The translations under genes and the position numbers were made by a program. Under the pieces are notes generated by a model that saw nothing but the letters and a program-made list of their open reading frames with translations, had not been told where the DNA came from and searched no databases. Positions 1 through 51,948 of a DNA stretch of 53,276 nucleotides are shown one piece after another. Numbering within the stretch: position 1 is the stretch's first letter; each line of letters begins with the position of its first letter. Origin of the DNA: Chiloscyllium plagiosum (taxonomy: Eukaryota); contig NC_057752.1 of NCBI RefSeq assembly GCF_004010195.1, positions 4,782,504 through 4,835,779 on the forward strand, read 5' to 3'.

Positions 1-280
1 CCTCCCTCAGCACAGCTGTAATGCTATCCCTTATCAAAAATGCCACTCCCCCTCCTCTCTTGCCTCCCTTTCTGTCCTTCCTGTAGCATTTGTATCCTGG
101 AACATTAAGCTGCCAGTCCTGTCCATCCCTGAGCCATGTTTCTGTAATTGCTATGATATCCCAGTCCCATGTTCCTAACCATGCCCTGAGTTCATCTGCC
201 TTCCCTGTTAGGCCCCTTGCATTGAAATAAATGCAGTTTAATGTATCAGTCCTATCTTATTCTCTGCTTTGTTCCTGCCT
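1..280 (-). mobile_element. CR1 LINE ORF2 fragment (APE endonuclease N-terminus)
   Basis: Minus strand encodes CIYFNARGLTGKADELRAWLGTWDWDIIAITETWL...; near-identical to 27950-28138. Confidence 0.85.
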
Positions 281-1072
281 TATAGAGGTTTATAAAGTCA
301 TGAGGGGTATAGATAGGGTAAATGGTAGCTGTCTTTTCCCTAGGATGGGGGATTTAAATGCAGTTTAATGTATCAGTCCTATCTTATTCTCTGCTTTGTT
401 CCTGCCTTATAGAGGTTTATAAAGTCATGAGGGGTATAGATAGGGTAAATGGTAGCTGTCTTTTCCCTAGGATGGGGGATTTCAAGACTAGTGGGCATGT
501 TTTTAAGATTAGATTCCCTACAGTATGGAAACAGACCCTTCGGCCCAACAAGGCCATACCGATCCTCCAAAGAGTAACCCACCCAGACTCATTTCCCTCC
601 CCTATATTTACCTCTAACTAATGCACCTAACACTATGGACAATTTAGCACGGCCAGTTCACCTAACCTGCACATCTTTGTGACTGTGGAAGGAAACCGGA
701 GCACCCGGAGGAAACCCACGCAAACAGGGGGAGAATGTGCAAACTCCACACAGAGAGTTGCCGGAATCAAAGCCGGGTCCCTGGCGCTGTGAGGCAGCAC
801 TGCTAACCACTGAGCCATCATACTGCCCTGAGGTAAGAGGGCAGAGATTTTTTAAAAAGACATAAGGGGCAATTTTTTTGTTTAGTGTGTGGAATGAACT
901 GCCAGAGGAAGTGGTGGATGTGGCTACAATTACTTTTAAAAGACATTTGGATAAGTACACGAATGGGCAAGGTTTGGAAGGAGTAGGCAGCTGGGACTAA
1001 TTGAGTTTGGGATTATGGTTGGCATGGACTGGTTAGACTGAAGGGTCTGTTTCCATGCTGGATGACTCCATG
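281..1072 (+). mobile_element. CR1 LINE 3' fragment (ORF2 end + 3' UTR), interrupted by a SINE
   Basis: LIEVYKVMRGIDRVN...; VWNELPEEVV; typical CR1 3' tail ggactgaagggtctgtttccatgctg. Confidence 0.8.
507..825 (-). mobile_element. HE1-type V-SINE (tRNA-derived)
   Basis: tRNA-like head tggctcagtggttagc with B-box; V-domain tgtgtggagtttgcacattctccc...gggtttcctccgggtgctccggtttcc; CR1-like tail. Confidence 0.85.
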
Positions 1073-3864: not shown

Positions 3865-4102
3865 GCTTCCAGCCCAAGTGTAGTTCTGAGGGAGTGCTAC
3901 TCTGTTGCTGTCTTTCAGATGCGATGTTAAATCCAAGCTTTATCTGCCCACTTGGTTGGTCATAAAATATCCTATGAACTGATTTGAAGATGGATGGTGG
4001 AGTTCTCCCCACTGTCCACATTGTTATTTATAACCAAAACACATCATCTGTTGGCCATGTTTTATCTGAGAGGGTTTACTGCTTGCAAATTGGCTGCAGT
4101 GT
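3865..4102 (+). mobile_element. Deu-domain SINE (SacSINE1/AmnSINE1-like), decayed
   Basis: ctgagggagtgct...tctttcagatg...gttaaa...ggagttctcccc...caaattggctgc matches the Deu-SINE consensus as I recall it. Confidence 0.65.
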
Positions 4103-4109
4103 TAGGTAG

Positions 4110-5765
4110 AGCTCGATGGGCCCCAGCTATGCCTGTCTCTTTGTCGACTATGTCAAACAGTCCCTCTTCAGTACCTACACAGGCACTGTACCCCAACTCT
4201 TCTGCCGTTATATCGATGACTGCATTGGTGCAGCGTCCTGCACCCCAGCTGAACTGGGGCAGTTTATCGACTTCACCCACAACGTCCACCCTGCCCTCAA
4301 ATTCACTTGGTCCATCTCAGACACCTCCCTCCCCTTTCTTGACCTCACCATTTCCATCTCCGGCGACAGTCTCCAGAGAGATGTTTACTACAAACCCACA
4401 GAGTCCCATAACTACCTGGACTATACCTCCTCCCACCCAATACCGTGCAAGAACTCCATCCCGTTCTCCCAATTCCTCACCTCCTCCGCATCTGCTCGGA
4501 CGAGGAGACATTCCACTCCCAAGCATCCTAGATGTTCAGCTATTTCGAACAATGTGCTTCCCCCCCCCCCACCTCTGTCATCCAGACAGCCCTCTGCCAC
4601 ATCACCTCCATTCCCTGTTCCACTGCCCTTTACCCGCCCCCTCGTGCCTCTGCCGCACCTGCTTGGACAAGGGAACATTCCACTCCCAAGCATCCCAAAT
4701 GTCCACCTATTTAGAACAATGTGCTTTTCCCTTCTCTATCAGCCAGACAGCCCTCCACTGCACTGGCTCCATTCCCCGTTCCACTGCTCTAAGCCCCCGC
4801 CCCTCTAAATGCAATAAAGACAGAGACCTCCTTTCTTCACCTACCATCACACCAGTCTCTGCATCCAACCCATCATCCTTAAACTCTTCCACTAACTCCA
4901 ACTAGACCCCACCACCAAGAACATCTTCCCCTTCCCACTCCTCTCTGCCTTCCACAAGGACCGTTCCCTCCGCCAATCCTTGGTTTGCGCCACTGTCACC
5001 ACCAATTCCCCCACCCCCCCAAACTCCCAGGTACCTTCCCCTGCAACTGGAAAAGATACAAAACCTGCCGGTACAACATCCCTCTCACCTCCATCCAAGG
5101 CCAAACAGTCCTTCCAGGTGAGACAGAGGTTCACTTGCCTCTCCTCCAACCTAGCTTACTGCATCAGGTGCTCCCGATGTGGTCTTCTGTACACCAGGGA
5201 GACCAAACATACACTAAGGAAACATTTTGCCAAGCATGTCATCCGGGCCCACAGGAGCTGACCTGACCTCCCACTCACCACCCATTTTAATTCCCTTCCC
5301 ACTCCTTTTCCGACATGACCATCCTTGGCCTCCTCCATTAACGCAACAAATCCAACCACAAGTTGGAGAAAGAACACCTCATCTTCTGCCTGGTCAACCT
5401 ACACAGTCTGGAGGACTCAACATTGAACTCTCCAATTTCAAATAGTCTCCCTTCCCATCACCCGATTCCGACCCAGTCCCTCTCCCTCCCTTCCACTCCT
5501 CTCATCGACCCTTCCATCTAGCCACCTACCAGATTCATTCCTCCCATTGACCAACCAGGTCGTACCCTCTACCTGGTTTTCCCTAACCCCACCTCACCAC
5601 CCTGCCCCCACCACCCCCTTTACCTGCAGCTCCCCCCACACCCACCCCCAGTCCTGAAGAAAGGTTACACCCAAAAACATCGACTTCTCCACCTCCCGAT
5701 GCTGCCTGGCTTGCCGTGTTCTTCCAGCCTCCTGCCTGTCTACTTTGGACTCCAACATCTGTGGT
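4110..5765 (+). mobile_element. Penelope-like retroelement (RT + GIY-YIG endonuclease), 5'-truncated and frameshifted, with 3' pLTR and hammerhead motif
   Basis: RT motifs MGPSYACLF, RYIDD, LPFLDL, VYYKPT..YLDYTSSHP; GIY-YIG region NLAYCIRCSRCGLLYTRETK and GLNIE; terminal CTGAAGA...AAAAC motif at 5654-5685. Confidence 0.92.
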
Positions 5766-6620: not shown

Positions 6621-9361
6621 TATTTCACCTCTGAGCTGCTGAGATACTTTTGAAGTCAGAAACATGTCTGTACTGTAATGTCAATGTTAAAAGTTTAATT
6701 AAAAGTTAAAAGTTAATTAAAAGTTCCTCAACCATTGGTTGTGATTGAATCACATGAAAAGAAGGTGGCCCCCTTCTCCACGCAGTCTCAAGCAGTTTGT
6801 ATATTGTGAGAGGTCAGACAGCTATTCAGTGGCTTGGCCAGAAAGGACAGCGTTGTACAATTGCCGTGTCTGCAAAGAATCCCATTCAATTACAATGTCG
6901 CCGCTTTCTCACAGCAACTGACTTGTCTCGATTGAAGTAATTCCAGTCACTCTTGTTATACCGAATGAATACACTGTTCCCCATTTCTTTGTAATGCAGT
7001 CAGTTGTGTAGCAGGAGCAGTGAATGTTGGTTTGACAAATTCCTCCCCTATCTATCAGGCCTGACTCAGTGCCTGAATTGACAAATTCTGTCGTCATCGA
7101 GTTGAAAACATTTGCAGTTCTGGATCTCTCTCTCTCTCCCTGTGTTGCTCACCCTCACCTGATTTCTTGCTTTTTGTAACAACACGTGCTCCCTCTCTCT
7201 CATCCTGCTTCATGCTTCTTAATTTCCTTCTCATTACATTTCTTGCCTCGTCTCTCGTTCGTCCAGCCTGTTTTAAGATGGTTTTTCTGGCCAACATGCT
7301 GGGGTTTGTGGAGCACACGGAGCAGGCTGGTCCTCTCCTGAAGGGGCTGTCTCTCAGCTGAGGCTGCCAGGGACACACACACACATACACACTCACAACC
7401 AATGATCTAGCAGCTCTGTTTCATCATGTTTCACAGGGGGTTGCTCTCCATGAGGCCTAGCAAGTTTTCTCACTGTCTGTTCCCAAACGCAGTTCATGAA
7501 CTATCTGGCCCACCCGGCGCACCCAATTCTACCACCTGCCGTCCCTGGTTGAAGTCACCACTCACCTGGCATCCCCGGTGCCCACATCATTGTTAAAAGG
7601 CCACTGCAGACTCATAGGCTCCACCCACTCAAAGATGTCAGTGAAGGGGAAACTGGCGCTGCCAATCTCTGAAAGGGTCGTGGAGGGCAGGGAGGTCTCC
7701 GAACACGGGACAACCCTGGCAATGACTGGCAGTGTGGTCCGAGGCTACCCCACCAGTGTAAGTGCTGCCATCTTCTCTCCGATACCTCACACTCTCACTG
7801 TCTCTCTCTGCTCCTGTACCCACCTCCCACCCAGGCTCACGCTCTCCCACTCTCACTATTGCTGCAATATCTTGCCTGAATCACTCGAAAGGATGGAATC
7901 ATTTTGTTTAAAAACATTTTGAACCACTTCATCAACCCATCCTACCACCTTTCTTACAATGGCCTTTTTGAAAATTAATTAATTGGACTTCCTACGTCTG
8001 GTTATGATCGGCACAATAGGAAGAGCTCCCATGCGCAGTGTGATGACTAACCTCTCCACAGTCTGCAGTAAAAAAAAATCCACTTAACTCCAAGTAGCAG
8101 TCAAAATCTGGAAAAGTCAACCACACAGAGACACATTCACACACAGAGACACGCACATACACACATACACACACACACAGACCACCACAAAACCACACCC
8201 CCACAAACCCACCCCCACGCACACAGATACACACACTTCCCCCGTAACCCTGCATGGTTTCTGTGCTGTGTCCTCACTACCTGAGAATCCCTCCCGCAGC
8301 AGCCTCAACAGCCCTGCCATCCACCTTCAGCTCACCCAATCCAGCCCTTTCTCTCATTCCAGGAGAAATGGGGCCGGAACAGGGAAAGCAATGGCCTGAA
8401 CAGATGCCCAACATCAGGCCCCTCAGCCCCCAGGAGAGGCCCCTCAGTCCTCACTGGAGCAGACTGGGCCTGATACCCTGGGGCGATGGACACTTCCATG
8501 TCCCAAGAACCACACACACATGTCATTCTTCATCCAGTCTATCTCAAACATTAGCCCCACTGCCAGTGCCATTCCTCGACCCCTCTCTCTAACCATCACT
8601 CATTCTCTCCCTTGTGTCCTCCATTGGGTTCAGTGAGCCTGACCCCCCTCAGACCTTCAGACTTGGCTGTCTGCTGCCTGCTGATGCAGTGAGTTTGCTG
8701 AGTGCCCTGCTGGCACATGGTGCAGGGGTGGCATTGACGGAATACACTGTCCTACAGCAAGGTGCCAGGAGGGGTGTGTGTGTGTGTGAGAGAGAGACTG
8801 GGCTAATTGGCAGAGCTGTGGGCATGCAAGTGGGTACTGAGTGAGCGAGTGCTCAGGGAACAAGTGAGGAGGCGTGAGCTGCAGCCTGGTCCGATCTGTG
8901 AGCCGGATACCTGTCCTTGGATACGCACTGTCCTAGCTGCAGCCTTTTAGTGCGAGGTATTGGTACAGCCTGTCATGCAGCTCTCTGCTTCCTCAGCAGC
9001 CTGGATCAGGGAGGTGCCATGATGGCTGACACTGACCATGGCTTATTGAGGAGTGTTGCACAGTGAGTGATGATGGAGCAGGCCCTGAGGTACTGGGTGC
9101 TGAACAACATGGAGGCCGTTTACAGCCAGCAGTGAGCGAAAATCACCAGGTCTTCCACGTCGAGAATTCTTGCTGCTCTGTTTGCTCAGGTACGTTTACG
9201 ATAGAAAGGTGCATATCGATGAAGTGAGATGTGCAGTTAATAATGTCATTGGCAGGTAAGAATCCCCTTTAGCAGGCAATGACAGTGAGACCTGCACTTC
9301 ATGAAAAGATGCAGCAATTTGTTCCTGACATAGGCCTCCCTGGAATCTGCCGTGTTTCTGG

Positions 9362-9915
9362 TTATTTGATTTGTCGTTGTTAGGTGTACCTCAGTACAGT
9401 GAAAAGTTCTGTTTTGTGAGCAGTGCAGGCAGATCATAGAGTGATTAGATAGAGTGAGACATACAAGGGATCCAGAAGTGCATAAAGCAAGTTCCACATT
9501 CAATTTGAAATTGGGGAGGTCCAGTCTGATAACAGCAGGGAAGAAGCTGTTCTTGAATCTGTTAGTCTGTGTGTTTAAGCTTTTGTATCCTCTGCCCGAG
9601 GGAAGAGGTTGGAAGAGATTGTAACCGGGGTGGGGGGGGGTCTTTGATGATGTTGCTGCCTTCCCGAGGCAGTGGGAAGTGTAGATGGAGCCAGTGGATG
9701 GGAGGTTGGTTTGGGTGATGGACTGGGCTGTGTTCACAACTCCCTGTAGTTTCTCACTGTCCTGGGCAGAGCAGTTGCCGTACCAAGCCGTGATCCATCC
9801 GGACAGAATGCTTTCCATGGTACATCTGTAAAAGTTGGGGAGAGTCTTTACGGTCATGCTGAATTTCCGTAGCCTCCTGAGGGAGTCGAGGTGTTGTTGT
9901 GCTTTATTGACCATC
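9362..9915 (-). mobile_element. Rex1/Babar-clade LINE 3' fragment
   Basis: KAQQHLDSLRRLRKF...NFYRCTMESILSGWITAWYGNCS...LPSGRGYKSL...TNRFKNSFFPAVIRL, the typical Rex-Babar C-terminal region. Confidence 0.9.
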
Positions 9916-11184
9916 ACATCCATAAGGGCTCCTCTCGGGTTCTGCCCAACATTGGGATTGGGAATATCAGCCCGGGGTTCCCACCCGATCACCCAGTTGC
10001 AAACTGCACTGGATGCCCTGAGGGGCAAGGCTTGGCCACAGCTGCGATGCCACTGCAGTCGAGCAGCTGCCGGCGCTTCTCCCCTGAATTCATTGGGAAG
10101 AAACGAGGAGGTGCAGACCTGGCAAGACCTGGCACCTGAAGGGGGTGGGGATGGGGAGTGGTGTGCACGAATGGACGTGGGGGGGGGGAAAGTGTGTGCA
10201 GACTGACCATTAGAATCTGAGAGAACATTTCGCTGTGAATTCGACTCGTGGGAAACTTATTCCGCCTGCATTCTGGGCAACAGATCTGTCCTGGAAAACC
10301 CCATTTGCTGGATGACCGTGGTCCTTGGGCAGTCAGTCAATCGCTCCCCTCCCCTCCCCCCACACGGTCTGACGGAGGAGCTGGGTTAGGTCACTGCTGG
10401 GAAATGCTGATGAATAGACCTGCAGGGAGTGACAGCTTTACTTTGTGGTGCTGATTCAGGGACGTTTCTTTTCATATATGTGGGAAGGCGACCTCAGTTT
10501 GAGCTAGCAGACAGTGTCAACTTGCAAATGTCTCCTTTCCCATGGGGCTGGAGCTGAGGAAGGTGGGGGGGAGGGAGGAAGGTGGAGTTGAGGTGGGGGG
10601 GCAGTGGTCTGACAATGTGTGAGGAGCGAATTGAGGAGCACAGAAGCCTTTGACCTTAAACAGCATCAGGAGAGACAGAAGGGGCTTCCACAGTGCTGAG
10701 GACAAAGACCACAAATTCAGCATTAATGCAAACACTGCTGGCAGCTTGAGGGAGATGCGTTCACATCTGTTTGCCTCTTATCTAGGTGAGGACTATCAGT
10801 GTGAGGAGAATTTATTTTTGTTATGGGGAAGGGACTGAACTGGGTTACATCAGCTCAGAATGAAGTGCATTTTCATTCTTTTGCTTTCACGGTGTGTTTT
10901 TTGAGATCGAGAACGCTATCTGAAAGGCTGGGGGAATATTAACTTTCTAAAGAGCAATTAAATCAGTACTTGAAGGGGACAGAAAGTATGGAAGATCAGA
11001 CCTGTGACATCGGTAAGACCATTTCTCTCCACCTTGGTAACATCAGCCAACTGTCTCAGCTTACCAACTGCTGACACTCCACATTCATGGTTCAGTAACC
11101 TCCACTTTCAACCATTCCATTGCACCCCCTGGCATGTCCCATCCACAGCGTACTCTCTGGTAATATCTTATCCAAGGTAAGAGA

Positions 11185-11935
11185 TGTAGATTTGTACAGC
11201 AAGGAAACGGACCCTTCAGTCCAACTCATCCATGCTGACCAGATATCCTAAACTAATCTCGTCCCATTCGCCAGCACCCGGCCCATATCCCTCCAAACCC
11301 TCCCTATTCATATACCCATCCAGGTGCCTTTTAAATGCTGTAATTGTACCAGCCTCCACCACTTCCTCTGGCAGCTCATTCCACACACGTACCACCCTCT
11401 GCATGAAAATGTTGCCCCTTAGGTCTCTTTTATATCTTTCCCGTCTCACCCTAAACCTATGCCCTCTAGTTNNNNNNNNNNNNNNNNNNNNNNNNNNNNN
11501 NNNNNNNNNNNNNNNNNNNNNNNNNNNNNNNNNNNNNNNNNNNNNNNNNNNNNNNNNNNNNNNNNNNNNNNNNNNNNNNNNNNNNNNNNNNNNNNNNNNN
11601 NNNNNNNNNNNNNNNNNNNNNNNNNNNNNNNNNNNNNNNNNNNNNNNNNNNNNNNNNNNNNNNNNNNNNNNNNNNNNNNNNNNNNNNNNNNNNNNNNNNN
11701 NNNNNNNNNNNNNNNNNNNNNNNNNNNTAAGATTTGCTTTCCCAAAATGCAGCACCTCGCATTTATCTGAATTAAACTCCATCTGCCACTTCTCAGCCCA
11801 TTGGCCCATCTGGTCAAGATCCTGTTGTAATCTGAGGTAACCCTCTTCGCTGTCCACTACACCTCCAATTTTGGTGTCATCTGCAAACTTACTAACTATA
11901 TTTCCTATGTTCACATCCAAACCATTTCTATAAAT
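11185..11935 (-). mobile_element. CR1 LINE RT C-terminus + 3' UTR (spans an assembly gap)
   Basis: SKFADDTKIGG...WAEKWQMEFNSDKCEVLHFG...VWNELPEEVVEA. Confidence 0.92.
11472..11727. other. Assembly gap (256 N)
   Basis: Run of N. Confidence 1.
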
Positions 11936-12287
11936 GACCAAATCTCTGCCTTCTGCCTCCCAGAGCATCACTTTGCCTTCACCATTGGTGGCCATGCCTT
12001 CCGCTGCTTCGGCTCTGGAATTTCATCCCAAAACATGGTCACTACTCCGCCTCACTCTTCCTTTCTGTCACATTATGCCATATTGGTTTCAGTGCATCAT
12101 GAAATTATATTGCAGTAGTGTGCATCTGTAAGATATGTAGATTAATAACATTTCTAGAGTTTGGGTTTTTCAAAATATTGTCACATGGGTGCCGGTTATT
12201 TTCATGAAAATAATTTTTTTTAAAAAAAGTGGTCAGATAGTCCTTCTCGAACAGTGACCTAGTCTCATTTATGCTGATGAACAGCTG

Positions 12288-12860
12288 GAGTCAGAGAGTT
12301 CTACAGCACGGAAACAGACCCTTCAGTTCAACCAGCCCAGGCCAACCCTAATCCCAAACTAACCTTGTCCCTCCTGCCTGCTCTGACATAACATAAAAAA
12401 ACAGGAGCTGGAAGGGCCTATCTGGCCCCTCAAGTCCACTCTGCCATTCACTAAGAACATGGCTGATCCATTCGAGGACTCAGCTCCACTTACCCGCCCT
12501 CTCACCATAACCCTTAATTCCTTTACTGCTCAAATATCTATCTGTGCCTTAAAAACATTCAGTGAGGCAGCCTGAACTGCTTCACTGGGCAGGGGACTCC
12601 ACAGATTCACAACCCTTTGGGTAAACAGGTTCCTCCCTAACTCAGTCCTCCTTATTTTGAGGCCATGCCCCCTAGTTCTAGCTGGCTGGCCCACATCCCT
12701 CCAAAACTTTCCTGTTCATATACTTATTTAAGTGATTTTTAAATGTTGTAACTGTGTCCACATCCACCACTTCCTCAGGAAGTACATTCCACCGCAAACC
12801 ACCCGCTGTGGAAACAATTTGCTCCTCATATCTTTCTTTCAATCCCTCTCCTCTCACCTT
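12288..12860 (-). mobile_element. Cluster of short CR1 3'-end fragments from different subfamilies
   Basis: Three successive CR1 tail/ORF2-end pieces (WNVLPEEVVDVDTVTTFK). Confidence 0.7.
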
Positions 12861-13070
12861 AGTGGAAATGGAGAAGTCCTTGTCCGGTGGTGGCTTGCAT
12901 TTCTCTCCTAGCAAGGAGCTTTTCAGAAGAAACAAAGCTGAGTTCTGGTTTTCTCTCTCCACAAATGCTGCCAGACCTGCAGAGCTTCTTCAGCATTTTC
13001 TGTTTGAATTTCAGATTGTCAGCATTTGCAGTAAGTTACTTTTATTAAAAAGAGTAAAGGGAATATGTTA

Positions 13071-13375
13071 GTTGAAACTTTATTGCTGGAACAGCACAGC
13101 AGGTCAGGCAGCATCCAGGGAACAGGAGATTCGACGTTTCGGGCACAGGCCCTTCTTCAGGAATCAAAACTTTCCTGTTCATATACTTATTTAAGTGATT
13201 TTTAAATGTTGTAACTGTGTCCACATCCACCACTTCCTCAGGAAGTACATTCCACCGCAAGCCTGTGCCCGAAACGTCGAATCTCCTGTTCCCTGGATGC
13301 TGCCTGACCTGCTGTGCTGTTCCAGCAATAAAGTTTCAACTTTGATCTCCAGCATCTGCAGACCTCACTTTCTCC
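13071..13375. mobile_element. Young non-autonomous Penelope-derived insertion: inverted termini + captured 96-bp local DNA, 14-bp TSD
   Basis: Perfect inverted repeat 13071-13150 / 13261-13340; 35-nt tail 13341-13375; TSD AAGGGAATATGTTA at 13057-13070 and 13376-13389. Confidence 0.9.
13128..13165 (-). ncRNA. Minimal type I hammerhead ribozyme motif
   Basis: GAUUC-CUGAAGA-A-GGGC(CUGU)GCCC-GAAA-C-GUC^GAAUC: complete catalytic core, 4-bp stem II, 5-bp stem I, palindromic ACGU mini-stem III. Confidence 0.8.
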
Positions 13376-13632
13376 AAGGGAATATGTTACCTTTGTTTAA
13401 AAAAAAGGTCTCGCTCGTGCAACTATCAGATCAGGAGAGTTTGGTCAGGAATCTGCAGGTTATTAAAAGCTGAAAACGTCTAAGCTCTCAGTTTAAGTCA
13501 GAAATAAAACTTTGATATAGAGACGTAATTTATCTGCATTTGAAAATCAACTCTCAGACAGTACTGGGAAATAATTGAAAATTTTGTTTTGTTTTATGTT
13601 TTAAGATATTTTTAAACAGTCTTCTACATCTA

Positions 13633-13912
13633 GGTCACAGAGATGTACAGCACAGAAACAGACCCTTCGGTCCAACCCGTCCATGCCGACCAGATATCCC
13701 AACCCAATCTAGTCCCACCTGCCAGCACCTGGCCCATATCCTTCCAGACCCTTCCTATTCATATACCCATCCAGATGCCTTCTAAATGTTGCAATTGTAC
13801 CAGCCTCCACCACTTCCGCTGGCAGCTCATTCTATACCCGTACCACCCTCTGTGTGAAAACGTTGCCCCTTAGGTCTCTGTTATATCTTTCCCCTCTCAC
13901 CCTAAACCTATG
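13633..13912 (-). mobile_element. CR1 LINE 3' end
   Basis: HRFRVRGERYNRDLRGNVFTQRVVRV plus the standard CR1 3' UTR. Confidence 0.88.
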
Positions 13913-14191
13913 TTTAGTTTGTTGGTTTTTCTTTACCAGTTGTGGAATAAACTTCAGTTTTGTTGTCAGTGAAACCCCACGGCTTCTTATTACCTGTGTT
14001 TCAGTGACAGACTGCCATGTTAGAACAAAAAGAGTTATGCCGGACCTCATTATGGGATCTGACTTAGTACCATTGTTAACTGGTATCATTACATTCGTAT
14101 ATGTACCAATCCCAATCTTTTCTTTATTATTGCTGCATGCACTTTGCTGATTCATTGTGTTGACTTCCCTCAACGACTAACTCGCCATCAA

Positions 14192-16258
14192 GAACCCAGC
14201 ACCAGAGGCTGGGATACAGAGACAGCTGGAACCCAGTACCTGAGGGCGGGGTACAGAGAGAGCTCGAATCCAGCACCTGAGGGTGGGGTACAGAGAGAGC
14301 GAGAACCCAGCATCTGAGGGCGGGGTAGAGAGAGCAAGAACCCAGCACCTGAGGGTGGGGACAGAGAGAGCAAGAACCCAGCATCTGAGGGTGCGGTACA
14401 GAGAGAGCTAGAACACAGCACCTGAGGGCGGGATACAGAGAGAGCTAGAACCCAGCACCTGAGGCTGGGATACAGAGAGAGCTAGAACCCAATACCTGAG
14501 GGTGGGGTACAGAGAGAGCTAGAACCCAGTACCTGAGGGTGGGGTACAGAGAGAGCTAGAACCCAGCACCTGAGGGCAGGGTACAGAGAGAGCTAGAACC
14601 CAGCACCTGAGGGCGGGGTACAGAGAGAGTGAGAACCCAGTACCTGAGGGCGGGGTACAGAGAGAGCTAGAACCCAGCACCTGAGGGCAGGGTACAGAGA
14701 GAGCGAGAACCCAGTACCTGAGGGTGGGGTACAGAGAGTGCTAGAACCCAGCACCTGAGGGTTGGGTACAGAGAGAGCTAGAACCCAGTACCTGAGGGTG
14801 GGGTACAGAGAGAGCTAGAACCCAGTACCTGAGGGTGGGGTACAGAGAGTGCTAGAACCCAGCACCTGAGAGTTGGGTACAGAGAGAGCTAGAACCCAGC
14901 ACCTAAGGATGGGGTACAGAGAGAGCTAGAACCCAGCTCCTGAGAGTGTGGTACAGAGAGTGCTAGAACCCAGCACCTGAGGCTGGAGTACAGAGAGAGC
15001 TAGAACCCAGCACCTGAGGGTGGGGTACAGAGAGAGCTAGAACCCAGCACCTGAGAGTTGGGTACAGAGAGAGCTAGAACCCAGCACCTGAGAGTGGGGT
15101 ACAGAGAGAACTAGAACCCAGCACCTGAGGCTGGAGTACAGAGAGTGCTAGAACCCAGCACCTGAGAGTGGGATACAGAGAGAGCTAGAACCCAGCACCT
15201 GAGGGCGGGGTACATAGAGAGCTAGAACCCAGCACCTGAGGGTGGGGTACAGAGAGAGCTAGAACCCAGCGCCTGTGGGCAGGGTACAGAGAGAGCTAGA
15301 ACCCAGCACCTGAGGCTGGGGTACAAAGAGAGCTAGAACCCAGCACCTGAGGCTGGGTACAAAGAGTGCTAGAACCCAGCACCTGTGGGCAGGGTACAGA
15401 GAGATCTAGAACCCAGCACCTGAGGCTGGCGTACAGAGAGAGCTAGAACCCAGCACCTGAGGGTGGGGCATCGAGAGAGCTAGAACCCAGCACCTGAGGG
15501 TGGGGTACTGAGAGAGCTAGAACCCAGTACCTGAGGGTGGGGTACAGAGAGAGCGAGAACCCAGCACCAGAGGCTGGGATACAGAGAGAGCTAGAACCCA
15601 GTACCTGAGGGTGGGGTACAGAGAGAGCTAGAACCCAGTACCTGAGGGTGGGGTACAGAGAGAGCTAGAACCCAGCACCTGAGAGTTGGGTACAGCGAGA
15701 GCTAGAACCCAGTACCTGAGGGTGGGGTACAGAGAGAGCTAGAACCCAGCACCTGAGGGTGGGGTACAGAGAGAGCTAGAACCCAGCACCTGAGGGTGGG
15801 GTACAGAGAGAGCTAGAACCCAGCACCTGAGGGTGGGGTACAGAGAGAGCTAGAACCCAGCACCTGAGGGTGGGGTACAGAGAGAGCTAGAACCCAGCAC
15901 CTGAGGGTGGGGTACAGAGAGAGCTAGAACCCAGCACCTGAGGGTGGGGTACAGAGAGAGCTAGAACCCAGCACCTGAGGGTGGGGTACAGAGAGAGCTA
16001 GAACCCAGCACCTGAGGGTGGGGTACAGAGAGAGCTAGAACCCAGCACCTGAGGGTGGGGTACAGAGAGAGCTAGAACCCAGCACCTGAGGGTGGGGCAT
16101 AGCGAGAGCTAGAACCCAGCACCTGAGGGTGGGGCATAGCGAGAGCTAGAACCCAGCACCTGAGGGTGGGGTACAGAGAGAGCTAGAACCCAGCGCCTGT
16201 GGGCAGGGTACAGAGAGAGCTAGAACCCAGCACCTGAGGGTGGGGTACAGAGAGAGCT
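14192..16258. repeat. 37-bp G-rich minisatellite (~56 copies), unit AGAACCCAGCACCTGAGGGTGGGGTACAGAGAGAGCT
   Basis: Head-to-tail repeats with 37-bp period (e.g. 15781, 15818), no unique spacers. Confidence 0.98.
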
Positions 16259-17924: not shown

Positions 17925-18530
17925 ATTAGGGCAGAAGCTTGATCAAATCAGATGGGCCAATGGGCTGAGGAGCGGCAGATGAAGTTTAATTTAGATTAAT
18001 GTGAGGTGCTGTATTTTGGGAAAGTAAATCTTAGCAGGACTTATACACTTAATGGTAAGGTCCTAGGGAGTGTTGCTGAACAAAGAGACCTTAGGTTGGA
18101 GGGTTTGAGCTACAGGGAGAGGCTGAACAGGCTGGGGCTGTTTTCCCTGGAGGGTCGGAGGTTGAGGGGGTGACCTTATAGAGGTTTATAAAATCATGAG
18201 GGGCATTGGTAGGATAAATAGACAAAGTCTTTTCCCTGGAATACGGGAGTCCTGAACTAGAGGGCATAGGTTTAGGGTGAGAGGGGAAAGATATAAAAGG
18301 GGCAACTTTTTCACTGAGGATGGTACGTGTATGGAATGAGCTGCCAGAGGAAGTGGTGGAGGCTAGTATAATTGCAACATTTAAAAGGCATCTGGATGGG
18401 TATATGAATAGGAAGGGTTTGGAGGAATATGGGCCAAGTGCTGGCAGGTGGGACTAGCTTGGGATATCTGGTCAGCATGGACGAGTTGGACTGAAGGGTC
18501 TGTTTTCGTGCTGTACATCTCTATGACTGT
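17925..18530 (+). mobile_element. CR1 LINE 3' fragment with internal deletion
   Basis: cagatgggccaatgggctgag...tggaatgagctgccagaggaagtgg...ctgtacatctctatgact. Confidence 0.88.
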
Positions 18531-24664: not shown

Positions 24665-25025
24665 TAGTCATATGGCGTACTGGCTTTTATTGGTAGAGGA
24701 ATTGAGTTCCGGAGTACTGAGGTCATGTTGCAGTTGTATAAGACTCTGGTGCGGCCGCATCTGGAGTATTGTGTGCAGTTTAGGTCGCCATAGTATAGGA
24801 AGGATGTGGAGGCACTGGAACGGGTGCAGAGGAGGTTTACCAGGATGGAGTTCATGGAATGCCCTGCCAGTTGCAGTGGTGGACTCTCCCTCTTTATGGG
24901 CATTTAAGCGGGCATTGGATAGGCATATGGAGGATAGTGGGCTAGTGTAGGTTAGGTGGGCTTGGATCGGCGCAACATCGAGGGCCAAAGGGGCTGTACT
25001 GCGCTGTATTCTTCTATGTTCTATG
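24665..25025 (+). mobile_element. CR1 LINE 3' fragment with internal deletion, (TTCTATG)n-type tail
   Basis: MLQLYKTLVRPHLEYCVQF...; WNALPVAVVDSPSLWAFKRALD. Confidence 0.88.
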
Positions 25026-27371
25026 TAGAACAGTAGGTACACCTCAGAAAAGGAATTCACTGGCAGTGGAAGAAGTGCTAGACATATATAAGCCCCCTTG
25101 TTTTTTCTTCATTCATAAACTGGAATCCATCAAGTCTGATTCATACATTGGAATGCAACATGAGCCTAATGTTTCAAGCTGCACATTCTCAGCTGGAGTT
25201 CTGGGCAGGGAGTGTTAACAGAATTCCAGCAGCAACTGGATAGAATGCCTCGCTCTCTTATTAAATGGTGCTTGAAACTTCCGTGTTTGACTTCTGAAAG
25301 ATATTTACAATTGCAACAGCACTTCAGGAATGTTGACACCAACTGGCTCACAGTTGACAGGCAACAACCATAATAACCATAATACAGCCTTACTGTACCG
25401 CCGGTTTCAACTGCTCTCCCTGTGGCACTGCCAGCTTCAACTGTGCACATGACATCATTGGCAGCTCAGACCAATCACCCTGTGGCTCCGCCAACTTCAA
25501 CCATTTATCCTACTGCATGGAAATGTAGACTTTGCCAACTTCAACTGTTGTCTCTATTGCACTCACTGCCATTCTGACTACTTGCCATGGTATAGACGAC
25601 CTGTGTAAATTAGGTTGTCGACTGCTGATGCCGCAGAAACAGTGCCAATGCTGGCGAGCACTGGCATTCCTTGCAAATTGCTGACCGCCGGTTTCAATTT
25701 CGAAGCTCCTTGGATGCTGCCTGAACTGCTGTGCTCTTCCAGCACCACTAATCCTGAATAACCTGACAGTGTATCCCGGAAATGGAAATTTTTATCATTG
25801 GAAGGTTTGACATTCTTTGCAGCCCTGGTCGAATTAATTGGACTGTCCTTTTAAATGACGATTCCCAGCAGTGGGGTGCCTCCTAATTCTGCTGGTGCTG
25901 CATAACCAGGTCATTTATTTCTGCATTCACCCTTCCAAGGATAGATCCAGTCTCCCTATATTGTGGAGGAGTCGAAAGGTCAGCCACTATTCCAATGGCC
26001 GCTTTTGTCTGTGTTCAGCTGAGTGGCGAGAATTGAAAAGAATTGGATTGAACTGAATTCCGCGAGGCTGGGCACCTCCATGCGGTCTGCAACAGAGCGG
26101 AAATAACCCTCGACTTGTCATCTCATGCTCTGACCTGCAGCTGCTTCACAAAAAAGACCAAGTGTTCAGCACGAAAGGACCTGGGCAGAGTGCATCAGTA
26201 GCAGGGAGGGGTCACCTGGGGGTCACAAAAGGTGCTTCTATCAGAGGGTGAATGTAGCTGTGGTGCTGCAGAGCACATGGGAGGTCCTGTCCACACAAAT
26301 GTCTCCCCTTGCCGCTCTCACAAACAACTTCAAACAATTCGGCAAGAGATGCAGCAAAAAAGGGCAGAGAGCAAAGATTTAACAACATGAAGAAAATAAA
26401 AGGGTGGAGTGTGGTGGAAGGACAGGGAGAGTTAGGGGAGCTTCTGGTCCTCTGCGACATGTTGAGGGGGTTGTCATGGTAACCACTTTGATGTGACACC
26501 AACTGGGAATGATAAATAGTGAAGGGGAGAGCGATCAGGGAGGAACAAGGCCAGTGGAGTGTAACATTTCAACTTGGTCTCCCAATCAGTCAGACCACCA
26601 GCTTACTGGGCGGGGGTGGGGAAGATCGACAACATGAAAGAAAAAGTTGACAAGAGGGGAATTGATATGTAAAAGCTAATAACACTTTATTAAAATCAGA
26701 GACACTTTCCCTCCAATCAACCACAAATTCAGAAACTCCGCAGTTCAGGATGAGGTAAGTGTGTAACTTAGTTTTTGTTCCCCCTACTCCTCATCTGGTG
26801 GGTTCCTCAATGTTCAGGCCTAGCTTTGGCCTGCTTGTTGTGTCTGGGGCCTTTCATCAGCAAGTTCTTTATGGCCCAGCAATTGTGGTGCTATTGAGGT
26901 TGCACCCATTGTGTGAACAGCTTCCTTACCCCCACAAGGGTGACGCTACTCCTGTGGACAATCTTCATTTTAGTTTGGAAGCAAGGTCAGTGAAGAGACT
27001 TGCTGTCAGTGTCATGGAGAAAATGTGGAGAATCACCAGGAGATGCAGAGGGTTCTTCAAGAAGTAGGTCTTTTATTTGCAACAAAAAACCTTAACACTC
27101 AGAAAGCAGATTCTTGAATGCCCCCAAACCTCAGGGTTTGTGACTTTTAATATCTTTTTTTATCATGTTTCTGTTAGCGTATCAGCATATCCAACTATAT
27201 TATTCAAAGTACCTCACGCTAGCTACACAATAAACCAGTGATGTTAGTTCCCACTATCTCTTTAATTGTGCCCCTATAGATTTTCCTACATTCTACTTAA
27301 TGTTATTCAAATGTCACGATTAGATATTTAGTGTCAGCTTTTGCAACAATGGTCTTAATATTTTCCTAATG

Positions 27372-28138
27372 TCATAGAGTCATAGAGATGTACAGCATGG
27401 AAACAAACCCTTCGATCCAACCCGTCCATGCCGACCAGATATCCCAACCTGATCTAGTCCCACCTGCCAGCACCCGGCCCATATCCCTCCAAACCCTTCC
27501 TATTCATATACCCATCCAAATGCCTCTTAAATGTTGCAGTTGTACCAGGCTCCACCACTTCCTCTAGCAGCTTATTCCATANNNNNNNNNNNNNNNNNNN
27601 NNNNNNNNNNNNNNNNNNNNNNNNNNNNNNNNNNNNNNNNNNNNNNNNNNNNNNNNNNNNNNNNNNNNNNNNNNNNNNNNNNNNNNNNNNNNNNNNNNNN
27701 NNNNNNNNNNNNNNNNNNNNNNNNNNNNNNNNNNNNNNNNNNGTCCCAGTCGATGTTTGGAAAGTTAAAATCCCCTATCATAACCACTCTATTTTTATTA
27801 CAGATAGCTGAGATCTCCTTCTAAGTTTGTTTCTCAATTTCCCTCTGACTATTAGAGGGTCTATAATACAATCTCAATAAGATGATCATCCCTTTCTTAT
27901 TTCTCAGTTCCACCCAAATAACTTCCCTGGATGTATTTCTGGGAATATCCTCCCTCAGCACAGCTGTAATGCTATCCCTTATCAAAAACGCCACTCCCCC
28001 TCCTCTCTTACCTCCCTTTCTGTCCTTCCTGTAGCATTTGTATCCTGGAACATTAAGCTGCCAGCCTGTCCATCCCTGAGCCATGTTTCTGTAATTGCTA
28101 TGATATCCCAGTCCCATGTTCCTAACCATGCCCTGAGT
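27372..28138 (-). mobile_element. CR1 LINE pieces: 3' UTR (27372-27581) and endonuclease domain (27743-28138) on either side of a gap
   Basis: GDFNFPNIDWD, YYRP, GGGVAFLI, IAITETWL motifs. Confidence 0.88.
27582..27742. other. Assembly gap (161 N)
   Basis: Run of N. Confidence 1.
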
Positions 28139-33640: not shown

Positions 33641-34492
33641 ACATAGAACATAGAACATAGAAGAATACAGCGCAGTACAGGCCCTTCGGCCCTCGATGTT
33701 GCGCCGATCCAAGCCCACCTAACCTACACTAGCCCACTATCCTCCATATGCCTATCCAATGCCCGCTTAAATGCCCATAATGAGGGAGAGTCCACCACTG
33801 CTACTGGCAGGGCATTCCACGAACTCACGACTCACTGAGTAAAGAACCTACCCCTAACATCTCTCCTATACCTACCCCCCCNNNNNNNNNNNNNNNNNNN
33901 NNNNNNNNNNNNNNNNNNNNNNNNNNNNNNNNNNNNNNNNNNNNNNNNNNNNNNNNNNNNNNNNNNNNNNNNNNNNNNNNNNNNNNNNNNNNNNNNNNNN
34001 NNNNNNNNNNNNNNNNNNNNNNNNNNNNNNNNNNNNNNNNNNNNNNNNNNNNNNNNNNNNNNNNNNNNNNNNNNNNNNNNNNNNNNNNNNNNNNNNNNNN
34101 NNNNNNNNNNNNNNNNNNNNNNNNNNNNNNGAATCACCTCACATTTATCTGCATTGAACTCCATTTGCCACCTCTCAGCCCAATTCTGCAGTTTATTCAA
34201 GTCCCCCTGCAACGTGCAACATTCTTCCACACTATCCACCACTCCACCGACTTTAGTGTCAACTCCAAACTTGCTAACCCATCCACCTCTGCCTGTGTCC
34301 AAATCATATATAAAAATGACAAACAGCAATGGTCCCAAAACAGATCCTTGCGGAACACCGCTAGTGACGGCACTCCAAGATGAACCTTTGCCATCAACTA
34401 CTACCCTCTGTCTTCTTCCGGCCAGCCAACTCCTAATCCAAACCTCCAACTCACCCTCAATGCCATACCTCCGTATTTTTTGCAGTAGTTTG
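33641..34492 (-). mobile_element. Younger CR1 LINE (RT C-terminus + 3' tail), spans a gap
   Basis: VTSGVPQGSVLGPLLFVIFIYDLD...WAERWQMEFNADKCEV; (TTCTATG)n tail; TSD CAACTT at 33635-33640 / 34493-34498. Confidence 0.92.
33882..34130. other. Assembly gap (249 N)
   Basis: Run of N. Confidence 1.
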
Positions 34493-37156
34493 CAACTTCT
34501 GCAAACAGTTAAAGTTTATTAAAGCTTGTACTAGCTAGGTGACCCCCTTTGACTCTCTTTTCAGGCATGCGAAGTTGGGTCAAAATGAGGCCCCGAACAA
34601 AGAAACCACATCCCCTTTATACAGGTCAGTTGGTAATGCTTACAGATACTCTGGCCACTCCCCCATAGTCACATGCCATTCAAGACAATCCCCAGATACT
34701 CACAGTCACTTGTTACCCCAGGTACAATGGTAGGATGAGATCATCCTCGGAGATAATGCAAATGCTAATGCACTAACCCTGGGGAATCGTTATGCAGATG
34801 ATTTCCTGACTCAGTGATTCCCCAAGACAATGTAGGTGTGACATAATTCTGGCCAGAAAGCATTCCTGAATGGAAGAGTTTGAATGATAGTTTAACTTGA
34901 CAATAGCAGGAGAGTAATAGTGAATGACTGTCTAGATGAAGTGTAAATTACAATGGATGGTCATCCGCATTCTTTCATGGCTGTCGTCCACACCCAAAGG
35001 CAGTGCAGTTTAACCCTTTAATATTACATTAATGTCCAGAGAGATATTACCATTTAATCTTTTAACATGACAAGCTGCCATGTTAAAGGTTATTATGGAA
35101 AATAAAAACTCATATTGTACAGGGTAACATGGTGGCATGGGCAAGGATTGATTAACTAACTAACAGGAAACAAAGAGTGGAGGTAAGTAGGTAATTTGCA
35201 CATTGGAACATTGCCATGAGGGAAGTGCCACAGGTATTGGTGTTCAGGCTTGATTTATTTACAATCTGTATAAATGACATGGATGATGAAACCAAATATG
35301 TAATTGATAAATTTTTTGATGACACAAAGGTAGAAAGGATAGTGAGTTCTGAAGTGGATGCATGAAGAAGACTACAAATGGATATGGATAGGTTAAATGA
35401 GTGGAAATACCCTTAGACCAGAGAGGGGGATGAATTAGGTGGTTAGGGAATAGAGGTTGTGATAAAGACCAAAGTTTAAGAATGGCTTCAATCTTCCCAG
35501 TCCTTGGGGCCTCCAGAAGTAAGAAAGAATGAGAAGGACAGCCATTACAGGCAAGTTTCTGGCTAGGAAAGGAGCCAGACAAGGATATTCCTGTTCATTC
35601 TGCACGACCGAGGCAAATGTTGAAGGAGGATGATGTGATCAAGCCTGCACAAATCTCCACAAGGACACAGGGAGATAATTTACCATGGTCAGAGTCTCAT
35701 AGGAGCGGAGTGAAGGAAGAAGGACAGTAAGAGAAGAAGTGAGACAGAGAGAGACAACTCAGGTCAAAAGCTAAAGCATTAATTTTTAATGTACAACTGT
35801 AAATCTATTTCAAAGAATCATTTTCGACTTATTTTAGGATTTAGAACATTCAGGGATTTCCTTCTTATTCCATCTTTCCTTCTTTAGTCCTACCCAGAAT
35901 ACACATCATTGTAATTGCCTAGTATCCTTCCAGTCCCACCATTATGTTGATTATTGGGAAAGTGGGATAGGGATGTGAGGCAGGAGTGGACTTGTTCAAG
36001 GAGAGAAGTCACATCATTTCCTATTACCCAAGTGAACTGGGTGGACATCTATGTTTAAGAAGTTGGACATGATAATGAGTCCATGAGAAAGAACAGAACA
36101 GAACAGTGGAACACTCCTCTTCCACGGCTACACCAGCACCATTTCCCACCTTTTCCTTTGCTACATCGAAGACTGTATCAGCGCTGCCTCATGCTCCCAC
36201 GAGGAACTTGAACAGTTCATTCATCACACCCACACCTTCCACCCTGACCTCAAGTTCACTGGAACCATCTCCGACACCCTCCTCCCCTTCCTGGACCTCT
36301 CCGTCTCCACCAACTGACATAACCCTGACATCTACTTCAAACCTACCGACTCCCACAGCTATCTTGACTACACCTGCTCCCAACCTCCCTCCTGTAAAGA
36401 CGTGATCCCTTACTCCCAGTTCCTCCGCCATATCTGCTCCCACATGAGCAATTCCACTCCCGGACATCCCAGATGTCCTCCTACTTCCAGGACCATAATT
36501 TCCCCTCCCTTGTAATCTGCGTTGTCCTCAATCGCACTTCCTCCGTTTCCCACACTCCTGCCCTTGAATCCCACCCCTCCCCAAACCCAACAGGTACAGA
36601 ATGCCCCGGTCCTCACATTCCACCCCACTATTCCCCAAACCCAGTGTATCATCCTCTGCCATTTTCACTGCCTACAGTCAGACCCCACCACCAAATATGT
36701 ATTTCCCTCCCCACCCTTTGCCTTCCCATACCCCCCATGATTCCCTTGTTAGGTCCAGACTCCCCACTCCACACCCGGCACCTTCCCCGCCATCATAAGA
36801 AGTGCACATCCTGCGCACATACCTCCCCCCTCACCTCCATCCAAGGCCCCAAAGGATCCTTCCATATCTGGCAGAGATTTAGTTGCACATCCTCGAACCT
36901 CATTTACTACATCCATTACTCTCGATGTGGTCTCCTCTACATTGAAGACACCGAGCACAAATTCGTGGAACAGTTCAGGGAACATCCCTGGTCCGTATGC
37001 ACCAACCAACCCCACCTTCCTGTGGCCATCCATTTCAACTCCCTTTCCCACTACCCCCTATGACATGTCCATTCTGGGCCTACTCCACCACCTAAACAAG
37101 GCCACCTGCAAACTGGAAAAGGAACACCTCAGCTTCCACATCAGGTGCCTACAACC

Positions 37157-44220: not shown

Positions 44221-45299
44221 ATATCTAAGTACCATCATCTCCTTTGCATCACAGTTTTTGTCAAGAGATGTTTGACCTCTGGGTCAGATTTCCAGATTCT
44301 GCAGGCTTGCTCTTCTGTCAGTTTGAGAAGAGCTTGCATTATCTCACAGCTGCTGCTATCATTTTTGTGATTTGCAGCTTATATTTGTCAGTTCGGTTGC
44401 ATAGTCACAAAAGTGATCACCAGCGGTTGTGTCTCTCTCCAGAAGTCCATGTCTCACCCAACCTGCACCATCAGTGAGGAACAAGGGATAATCAATGCAA
44501 TATAAATAGACCTTGGTGCAGATCATCCAAGGTTCTGCCAAAGAATACAAAACTTCCTTACTAAAACCATCACAAAGGTGAGTGTACTCACAGAGATAGG
44601 CTTCTCTTGTAGGGGGAGAATAGAGTGGAGCAGCCAAGGTAAAACTTTGACCTCTTTGTAAACTTGTGATATACCATTAAAATAAATGGGTAGAAAAACC
44701 ATGATTGGTGAGCGTAGAAGCAGAAAGCCCTAGCCCATGTTTCATCTAACCCAAAAATGTGTAATGCAGAAAATCCCCTGCTGACATCATAAATGCTGCC
44801 CTTCAAAACAGTTCATTATACATGAAGTGCTCTGGACATTTCTGGAATACATTAAGGCATGTTGCAAAAGATCATGGTCCTGAACTTCCTCAGGGAAGGT
44901 GCACACAGTTCCTGTGTAAAATGCAAACGAGAACAGTGGAGGGAATGAGAAATTGGGTGGATCCAAAAATGTTAAGTCTTTTCCTGAAAACTGGCACAAG
45001 AGACTTCCTGCTGCAACAACAGACATTCTGCTCTCACCATAATGATCTAAGAAAAGGCAGGAGTCATGACAGGCAGAGTGATTTCACCTGCCAGATTTAT
45101 TACAACTCCTGCCACTTACATCATGTGCCAGTGACAGGAAAGCTAGAGAATATTTAGACCAGAACTCAGAAGTGATGGAACTGCGTCTCTCAAAGGAAGC
45201 CCACAATCAATTATTGCTCCTATTTCCTTTGGCTATCTCAATTGCTTATTAGTATTTTGGGATCATGTTCCACAATTCAGCTTGTCTCTGAAAACAAGC

Positions 45300-48994: not shown

Positions 48995-51948
<2,954 letters not shown>

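What the first reader, a model, noticed from the sequence alone, without database searches (positions are those of the whole stretch)
13057..13389. Very young palindromic Penelope mini-insertion that captured 96 bp of neighbouring DNA
Seen: the order is 14-bp TSD (13057-13070), left arm 13071-13164 with an intact hammerhead, 13165-13260, right arm 13261-13340 (perfect 80-bp inverted copy of 13071-13150), 35-nt tail, TSD (13376-13389). The spacer 13165-13260 is identical to 12702-12797, a decayed CR1 scrap ~270 bp upstream of the insertion site, including its private mutations. Established: Penelope insertions can show inverted pLTRs with a short tail on one arm. Inference: during integration the polymerase jumped onto nearby genomic DNA (or its transcript) and back, giving a snapshot of templated local capture. 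The product could form a long hairpin RNA or cruciform with host DNA in the loop.
Basis: partly seen in the sequence, partly recalled or inferred. Interest (0 to 1): 0.8.

Follow-up and report, generated by a model that had tools for sequence, protein, structure and literature searches.

The report
Penelope fold-back insertion copying nearby DNA
A small jumping-gene insertion, absent from three related shark-like samples, holds between its two mirror-image arms an exact 96-base copy of DNA lying 260 bases away, likely borrowed by a polymerase while the insertion was being sealed, a slip known from human L1 elements but little documented for this element class.

Summary
Every coordinate checks out: 14-bp TSD, perfect 80(81)-bp inverted arms, 35-nt one-sided tail, and a 96/96 copy of 12702-12797 carrying all 26 of the donor's departures from other CR1-like copies. 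Contigs of 3 of 3 public runs (two of the window's species, one sister species) carry the empty site with a single 14-mer, so the TSD is real, the donor is older and the insertion is young. The spacer is not part of the element: raw-read depth falls from about 17,600 on the arm to about 50 on the spacer, and spacer-less head-to-head joints at nearly the same points recur. The arms are the hammerhead-bearing end of a Penelope-like element with tens of thousands of copies. Best reading: two cDNAs primed from the two nicks, bridged by a locally templated DNA patch with no microhomology. No listed read or contig confirms the filled allele, so an assembly error is not fully excluded (about 0.08). 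L1 makes similar templated insertions; unchecked scan notes list five more such Penelope cases in this genome. New variant of a known kind.

The parts
12702..12797 (-). Donor: part of an old, decayed CR1-like LINE 3' end (coding strand minus), present in place in insertion-free samples
   Evidence: 96/96 identity to spacer; colinear with other copies across both edges, 18/30 and 28/38 to majority; minus-strand frame resembles the ORF2 C-terminal stretch seen at 18281-18454 and 52674-53240; the label CR1 is recalled, Pfam and the Atlas gave no family; contigs 12560-12765 (X1, 0 differences), 12569-12765 and 12773-12861 (X15)
13057..13070 (+). Left target-site duplication copy (14 bp; 13 bp if the last A is taken from the element)
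   Evidence: single copy in empty-allele contigs of X1, X15, X5
13071..13164 (-). Left arm: tail-less Penelope-like end unit, 94 bp, ending inside at the 5' edge of hammerhead helix I
   Evidence: family continues with other letters behind 13164 in 13,346 raw reads
13129..13164 (-). Minimal type-I hammerhead motif: helix I 13164-13161/13132-13129, core 13160-13154, bulged A 13153, helix II 13152-13149/13144-13141, G12-A14 13140-13138, palindromic 15.2/16.2 CG, predicted cut after 13133
   Evidence: compared with the descriptor in PMC4209133; activity untested
13165..13260 (+). Captured 96-bp spacer, direct-orientation copy of 12702-12797, no exact microhomology at either junction
13261..13340 (+). 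Right arm: 5'-truncated end unit starting inside hammerhead helix II (lacks the catalytic core), perfect inverse of 13071-13150
13341..13375 (+). 35-nt tail; its last base is the family's common 3' terminus
   Evidence: loose ends behind 13375 in 259 (X1), 230 (X15), 265 (X5) contigs and 16,723 raw reads; tail present in 5 of 7 other window copies
13376..13389 (+). Right target-site duplication copy

Best explanation
The 319-bp insert is a young, dead-on-arrival insertion of a Penelope-like element's hammerhead-bearing end, in which two head-to-head arms enclose an exact copy of 12702-12797 that was likely copied from local DNA during the same integration event. Inferred sequence of steps: the element's endonuclease nicks both strands 13-14 bp apart; each 3' end primes a cDNA from one of the two adjacent reverse-transcription start sites (tail-less left arm, tailed right arm); both cDNAs stop near the hammerhead's 5' edge, where this family usually stops; instead of joining each other directly, as many sister copies do, one cDNA end is extended on single-stranded DNA made available by resection left of the break (either the left cDNA jumping end-to-end onto a released bottom-strand fragment, or the right cDNA copying the exposed top strand), and the ends are then joined. 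Shown: anatomy, TSD, empty allele, donor priority, locus specificity. Inferred: two-nick priming, timing, the DNA nature of the template and the polymerase (element RT slightly favoured over Pol theta because no microhomology is seen).
For: Empty allele with one 14-mer in 3 of 3 contig runs, so the whole 319 bp lies inside one TSD. Both outer ends fall on family termini: 13375 is the common tail end, and 2 of 7 other window copies stop tail-less within about 5 nt of 13071. A purified Penelope-like protein nicks and extends both strands and starts at two sites that define the tail, without homology to the target (PMC11167929). 4 of 7 other window copies begin within about 8 nt of the left arm's inner end (read by eye). 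Spacer-less joints at the same place recur: 13164->13261 with one G at contig depth 178 against about 3 for single-copy contigs in X1; 13164->13266 in 17 raw reads with 14 starts in X19, and in X15 and X5. Spacer shares 26 of 26 donor-specific letters. L1 precedent: 22 templated insertions among 3,598, and 3 with genomic DNA from near the site.
Against: No listed contig or read bridges 13164/13165 or 13260/13261 (91,614 pieces were not shown, and X19 depth on unique bins was 0 to about 1). Zero exact microhomology at both inner junctions means no annealing step can be pointed to. The spacer replaces, to within one base, the single G of a recurrent spacer-less joint, which a later loop break would also give. 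L1 templates lie mostly within 15 bp of the site, this one 259-355 bp away. One locus only was examined.
Confidence: 0.62

Rival explanations
1. Two steps: a spacer-less palindrome inserted first; later its 80-bp hairpin was cut at the loop and the break was patched with a locally templated insertion by host repair (Pol theta or strand invasion).
For: The spacer sits where sister copies have a single G between the same two arm ends (table 5c). Perfect inverted repeats are break-prone (recalled knowledge).
Against: Arms, TSD and spacer show 0 differences in 190 paired bases (upper 95% bound 1.6%) and the site is empty in 3 of 3 runs, leaving little time for a second rare event. Arm ends cluster at the hammerhead edge anyway (unchecked notes e1-7858061, e1-7858714), which removes much of the coincidence. 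No intermediate allele among listed pieces.
Confidence: 0.14
2. Same event, but the 96 nt were copied from an RNA (a nascent host or read-through transcript of the locus) by the element's reverse transcriptase.
For: No microhomology at either junction fits end-to-end RT template jumping; RT switches between RNAs are described for L1. mir-153 on the + strand 31 kb downstream hints at a long + strand transcript.
Against: No exon of a host gene was found around the site (motif scan); no RNA run was examined; orientation does not discriminate because either cDNA could be the one extended.
Confidence: 0.13
3. Assembly artefact: the middle (or all) of the insert was mis-filled with neighbouring sequence.
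For: The window is scaffolded (3 N gaps) and has an unexplained 131-bp 99% tandem duplication at 228-485; inverted Penelope insertions trouble short-read assemblies (PMC8557442); no independent read shows the filled allele.
Against: A 14-bp TSD validated by the empty allele, outer ends on biological termini and inner ends on a recurrent biological joint are hard to fabricate; the longest word spanning an inner junction that occurs elsewhere in the window has only 4 bases each side, so a graph walk within the window cannot make the joins. Unchecked notes report old, diverged cases of the same pattern in this genome (e1-7789279, e1-9983008).
Confidence: 0.08
4. The 96 bp are part of a dispersed chimeric element (or were later homogenised with the neighbour by gene conversion).
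For: The donor belongs to a high-copy family; an unchecked note describes one such multi-copy Penelope-borne host segment in this genome (e1-7858329).
Against: Raw-read depth about 17,600 on 13136-13171 against 49 on 13172-13207; contigs of X1 and X15 run unbroken across the donor's left edge, which a second left context should split; reads of the family mostly carry other letters at the donor-specific positions (for example 13247: 166 of 177 and 149 of 165).
Confidence: 0.03

Closest known systems
Insertion units of endonuclease-positive Penelope-like elements with an inverted 5'-truncated copy and a one-sided 30-40-bp tail (PMC8557442, PMC3846280, PMC11167929)
   Same: Inverted arms, 35-nt tail on one arm, TSD, heavy 5' truncation, minimal hammerhead, AT-rich target.
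   Different: No ORF at all between the arms; the arms are separated by an exact copy of neighbouring DNA rather than abutting or overlapping.
Host DNA captured between Penelope pLTRs in Adineta vaga (PMC3846280, passages)
   Same: Unrelated host sequence between pLTRs inside one TSD, empty site shown.
   Different: There the cargo is long (0.9-1.5 kb spacers, a whole NRPS gene), mostly between direct pLTRs and moved to a new place; a donor next to the insertion site is not described in the passages read.
L1 templated insertions (10.1101/2024.08.27.596794, passages; PMC11702581, passages and section 7)
   Same: Short (<250 bp) genomic segment duplicated into the insert within the TSD; two oppositely oriented cDNAs joined with extra sequence at their junction.
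   Different: Different element class, no poly(A); both arms copy the same RNA stretch (not adjacent stretches as in twin priming); donor 259-355 bp away against typically 15 bp or less; germline rather than somatic or engineered.
Minimal hammerheads of metazoan Penelope-like elements (PMC4209133, parts 1-2 of 4)
   Same: Core, bulged base between 9 and 10.1, G10.1-C11.1 pair, short helix I, palindromic helix III remnant; pairs on opposite strands 100-700 bp apart are noted there.
   Different: Helix II is 4 bp; only one of the two arms keeps the core.

Membership tests
Penelope-like element insertion unit | Minimal hammerhead motif in the terminal repeat | tested here: met
   Position-by-position match on the minus strand 13164-13129 to the descriptor in PMC4209133; Rfam models give no hammerhead hit at gathering or E<=10
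Penelope-like element insertion unit | Inverted 5'-truncated copy and 30-40-bp tail on one end | tested here: met
   81-nt 100% inverted arms, 35-nt tail; tail end is the family terminus
Penelope-like element insertion unit | Target-site duplication with an empty allele | tested here: met
   Single 14-mer in contigs of X1, X15, X5
Penelope-like element insertion unit | Repeat is the end of an element encoding RT plus C-terminal GIY-YIG | tested here: inconclusive
   No ORF in this insert. A 72%-identical unit at 5652-5761 follows a frameshifted RT ORF whose relatives carry PF00078/PF26215, one of 16 also PF01541; Pfam itself did not hit the 4 window pieces; the autonomous partner of this subfamily was not seen
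Penelope-like element insertion unit | Mobilised by the element's RT/EN; hammerhead self-cleaves | not testable with these tools
   Needs biochemistry
Locally templated insertion (L1-type) | Inserted segment duplicates older DNA near the site and lies inside the TSD | tested here: met
   96/96, 26 of 26 donor-specific letters, donor in place in empty-site samples
Locally templated insertion (L1-type) | Template within about 15 bp of the site | tested here: not met
   259-355 bp against the typical value
Locally templated insertion (L1-type) | Arises in the same event as the insertion | tested here: inconclusive
   No intermediate allele among listed pieces of 4 runs; filled allele not seen either
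Pol theta templated insertion (TMEJ) | Microhomology of about 2-6 nt at the junctions (recalled) | tested here: not met
   0 exact bases at both inner junctions; at most 1 base left and an imperfect 2-3 bases right
L1 twin priming | Inverted and direct parts come from adjacent, largely non-overlapping stretches of one RNA; poly(A) tail | tested here: not met
   Both arms cover the same 80 nt; no poly(A); definition
MITE / fold-back DNA transposon | Symmetric terminal inverted repeats at both ends and a fixed internal sequence across copies | tested here: not met
   35-nt asymmetry; solo units in the window; spacer not shared
Non-LTR retrozyme | Head-to-tail tandem units each with a hammerhead | tested here: not met
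   Head-to-head, one core only; definition from search listing and passages

The most novel reading that the evidence does not exclude
Penelope-like integration routinely passes through a double-strand break with two cDNA-extended ends, and the element's own reverse transcriptase, running off the RNA's 5' end at the hammerhead, jumps without homology onto single-stranded fragments released by resection hundreds of bases to kilobases away. Fold-back insertions of this shark family (tens of thousands of copies, a young subfamily specific to one species) would then be a genome-wide record of germline resection tracts and a steady source of local dispersed duplications.
Probability: 0.3. Interest if true: 0.68.

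Novelty: new variant of a known kind. Interest (0 to 1): 0.42.

Why it matters
How Penelope-like elements finish integration is open: the in vitro work stops at nicking and first-strand extension (PMC11167929). A young insertion with a validated empty site, both RT start sites on the two nicks and a locally copied patch at the join says the intermediate stays open long enough for DNA 260-355 bp away to serve as template. One case is a footnote; but the family is huge here and still spreading, so spacer origin, distance, orientation and junction homology can be counted genome-wide, which would test the two-nick model and separate RT jumping from host repair. The insertion itself has no evident function.

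Tried and rejected
No whole genome is held, so the 96-mer could not be searched genome-wide. Metagenome scans: a 30-letter arm pattern found 0 loci; a 20-mer found 17 loci, none aligning over more than 26 bases to the insert, so all 17 were dropped as chance. The oppositely oriented units at 38413-38519 and 38863-38994 looked like a second arm pair but are separate insertions; the 343 bp between them have no second copy in the window. Rfam: no hammerhead family; MIR841/MIR831 hits are far below gathering scores and reflect only the hairpin. A self-priming fold-back of the left cDNA end is weak by energy (only helix II forms, -4.1 kcal/mol), so I do not claim it. A PTPRN-like host gene was sought with 20 short recalled motifs in six frames and not found. 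Pfam gave no hit on 4 Penelope-like and 2 CR1-like ORF pieces; 2 tubulin pieces hit; the Atlas gave no family for the CR1-like piece. Look-ups of earlier findings by sequence and by words returned nothing. X19 raw reads (about 4 in 100 of the run) were too thin on unique DNA to genotype the site. Only 4 of 22 listed runs could be laid. PMC9977147, PMC13174262 and 10.64898/2026.07.22.740005 (passages) had nothing on local capture by Penelope elements.

Full report
1. Observation. The 14-mer at 13057-13070 recurs at 13376-13389 and nowhere else in the window. Arms 13070-13150 and 13261-13341 are 81 nt and 100% complementary; one base belongs to the TSD. The right arm continues with a 35-nt tail to 13375. 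The spacer 13165-13260 equals 12702-12797 at 96 of 96 bases, and the identity extends by 0 bases on either side. In an alignment with 7 other copies of the same old repeat from this window, the donor departs from the majority at 26 of 96 columns; the spacer shares all 26, and 12 occur in none of the 7; those copies are 51-79% identical to the donor. The donor stays colinear with the family across both of its edges (18/30 and 28/38 to the majority), so it is the original. Of 7,461 sampled 96-mers in the window, 53 have an exact second copy, all within two tandem arrays: a dispersed exact 96-mer is not background.

2. Public reads. 22 runs were listed; 4 were laid on 12560-13630 at 90% likeness. 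In all 3 contig runs one record goes straight from 13056 to 13376: X1 (organism A; 12966-13056 plus 13376-13630), X15 (organism A, another study) and X5 (organism B, 9 differences in 352 bases, 2.6%). That is the empty site with one 14-mer. X1 and X15 match the window almost exactly in the flanks (X1: 1 difference in 552 bases), so organism A is the window's species or very close. The donor is in place in both (12560-12765, 0 differences; 12569-12765, 1 difference; 12773-12861, 0 differences), and these contigs cross the donor's left edge unbroken, which argues against a second left context for the spacer in those samples (inference from how such contigs are built). No listed piece bridges the inner junctions; 91,614 pieces were not shown, contigs show presence and not absence, and the raw run X19 had depth 0 to about 1 on unique bins. 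So the filled allele rests on the assembly alone.

3. The family. In X19, depth is about 17,600 on 13136-13171 and 49 on 13172-13207; 13,346 reads leave the window's sequence behind 13164 and mostly continue with the element's own upstream letters, and 16,723 leave it behind 13375, the common 3' end. With an assumed genome of 2.5-4.5 Gb this is roughly 35,000-90,000 copies at 90% likeness, about 8,000-14,000 of them with this insert's diagnostic letter at 13329 (genome size assumed, not measured). Summed contig depth at that position is 617,000 in X1, 882,000 in X15 and 2,155 in X5; the tool warns that such sums are not copy numbers, but the contrast suggests a subfamily that expanded after the A/B split. 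Spacer-less head-to-head joints at nearly the same points recur: 13164->13261 with one G between (X1, depth 178 against about 3 for single-copy contigs), 13164->13266 (17 raw reads, 14 starts, in X19; also contigs in X1, X15, X5); 410 further joints were not shown. Among 7 other units in the window, 5 carry a tail, 2 stop tail-less within about 5 nt of the left arm's outer end, and 4 begin within about 8 nt of its inner end (read by eye). One unit (5652-5761, 72% identical) follows a frameshifted RT ORF whose best relatives are shark and ray proteins with PF00078/PF26215, one of 16 also with GIY-YIG PF01541. The host is thus a cartilaginous fish (inference).

4. Hammerhead. On the minus strand 13164-13129 reads helix I (4 bp), core, one bulged A, helix II (4 bp, with the G10.1-C11.1 pair), GAAA-C, G-U-C and the partner strand of helix I; folding gives helices I and II (z about -1, not significant alone). 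This fits the minimal hammerheads of Penelope-like elements, which lack helix III, are thought to work as dimers and cleave poorly in vitro (PMC4209133, parts 1-2 of 4 read). Rfam has no hit. Both arms run through the predicted cut site, in line with uncleaved RNA being the template (PMC11167929). The right arm lacks the core.

5. Mechanism. PMC11167929 (parts 1-2 of 4 read) shows that a Penelope-like protein nicks and extends both strands and starts reverse transcription at two adjacent sites whose distance is the tail, without homology to the target. The insert maps onto this: the top-strand nick primes the tail-less left arm, the bottom-strand nick primes the tailed right arm, and their 3' ends meet in the middle (inference). 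Here 96 nt of upstream DNA stand between them in direct orientation. Resection left of the break would remove the bottom strand and expose the top strand; either a released bottom-strand fragment copied end-to-end by the left cDNA, or the exposed top strand copied by the right cDNA, gives this product (inference). Exact microhomology is 0 at both junctions (at most 1 base left if the source copy had a C, which some family contigs do; an imperfect 2-3 bases right), which suits RT template jumping better than Pol theta repair (recalled knowledge). I put this one-event, DNA-templated reading at 0.62; a later break at the hairpin loop at 0.14; an RNA template at 0.13 (no host exon found; no RNA run examined); misassembly at 0.08; spacer as part of the element at 0.03. 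Age: 0 differences in 190 paired bases (95% bound 1.6%) and absence from 2 of 2 organism-A contig runs and from organism B. The whole insert folds at -119.6 kcal/mol as single-stranded DNA, which only restates the perfect inverted repeat; no function is indicated.

6. Known relatives. Inverted truncated copies and one-sided tails are standard for Penelope-like elements (PMC8557442 and PMC3846280, passages). Capture of host DNA between pLTRs within a TSD is described in Adineta vaga, without a local donor in the passages read. For L1, 22 templated insertions among 3,598 had templates under 250 bp, typically within 15 bp of the site (10.1101/2024.08.27.596794, passages), and 3 engineered insertions held genomic DNA from near the site (PMC11702581, passages and section 7); their supplements were not seen. 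Six literature searches listed no paper on locally templated spacers in Penelope fold-back insertions or on this shark family; the library lacks most subscription papers.

7. Earlier scan notes (unchecked AI notes, leads only). Five describe local DNA between inverted Penelope arms elsewhere in this genome (137 bp from about 0.4 kb, 143 bp from 1.3 kb, 236 bp from 1 kb, 205 bp from 1.35 kb, 1.7 kb from 3 kb), and three describe 5' ends piling at the hammerhead edge. I could test only the last, in this window. If those notes hold, the pattern is recurrent and reaches much farther than for L1.

8. Verdict. Real in the assembly, flanked by a validated TSD, young, and locally templated; a new variant of a known kind. 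Interest 0.42 as a single clean case pointing to a countable class; 0.68 if the RT-on-resected-DNA reading (probability about 0.3) holds genome-wide.

Noticed in passing
window 12917-13050 +: An older, decayed Penelope-type end unit ends about 7 bp left of the TSD (74-81% over 31-54 nt to other units; high read depth): the new insertion landed next to an old relative.
   Followed up: partly
window 3988-5761 +: Frameshifted Penelope-like RT ORF (relatives with PF00078/PF26215, best E 8e-53), a degenerate GIY-YIG-like stretch at 4896-5258 (by eye; no Pfam hit) and a hammerhead end unit at 5652-5761; a second RT relic lies near 36079-37157.
   Followed up: partly
window 44352-44424 + and 48998-50690 -: mir-153 lies 4.6 kb from an alpha-tubulin gene, yet no exon of its usual PTPRN/PTPRN2-type host (recalled) was found by a motif scan of the window; it may be an orphan copy.
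   Followed up: partly
window 13054-13072 and 13374-13392: If the TSD is read as 13 bp, both putative nicks fall at TT|AC (one on each strand), as a dimeric endonuclease might give; post hoc, and the 8-bp TSD of the unit at 38397-38519 does not show it.
   Followed up: no
tables 5 and 5c: Spacer-less fold-back joints at 13164->13260/13261 occur in two species with different loop letters, suggesting an independently recurring joint at the hammerhead's helix I / helix II edge.
   Followed up: partly
window 228-485; 1-191 and 27949-28138; 24848-25026 and 33648-33826: A 131-bp 99% tandem duplication and two 97-98% dispersed pairs; the latter look like young LINE pieces, the former is unexplained.
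   Followed up: no
window 14191-16200: 37-bp minisatellite array with many identical units.
   Followed up: no
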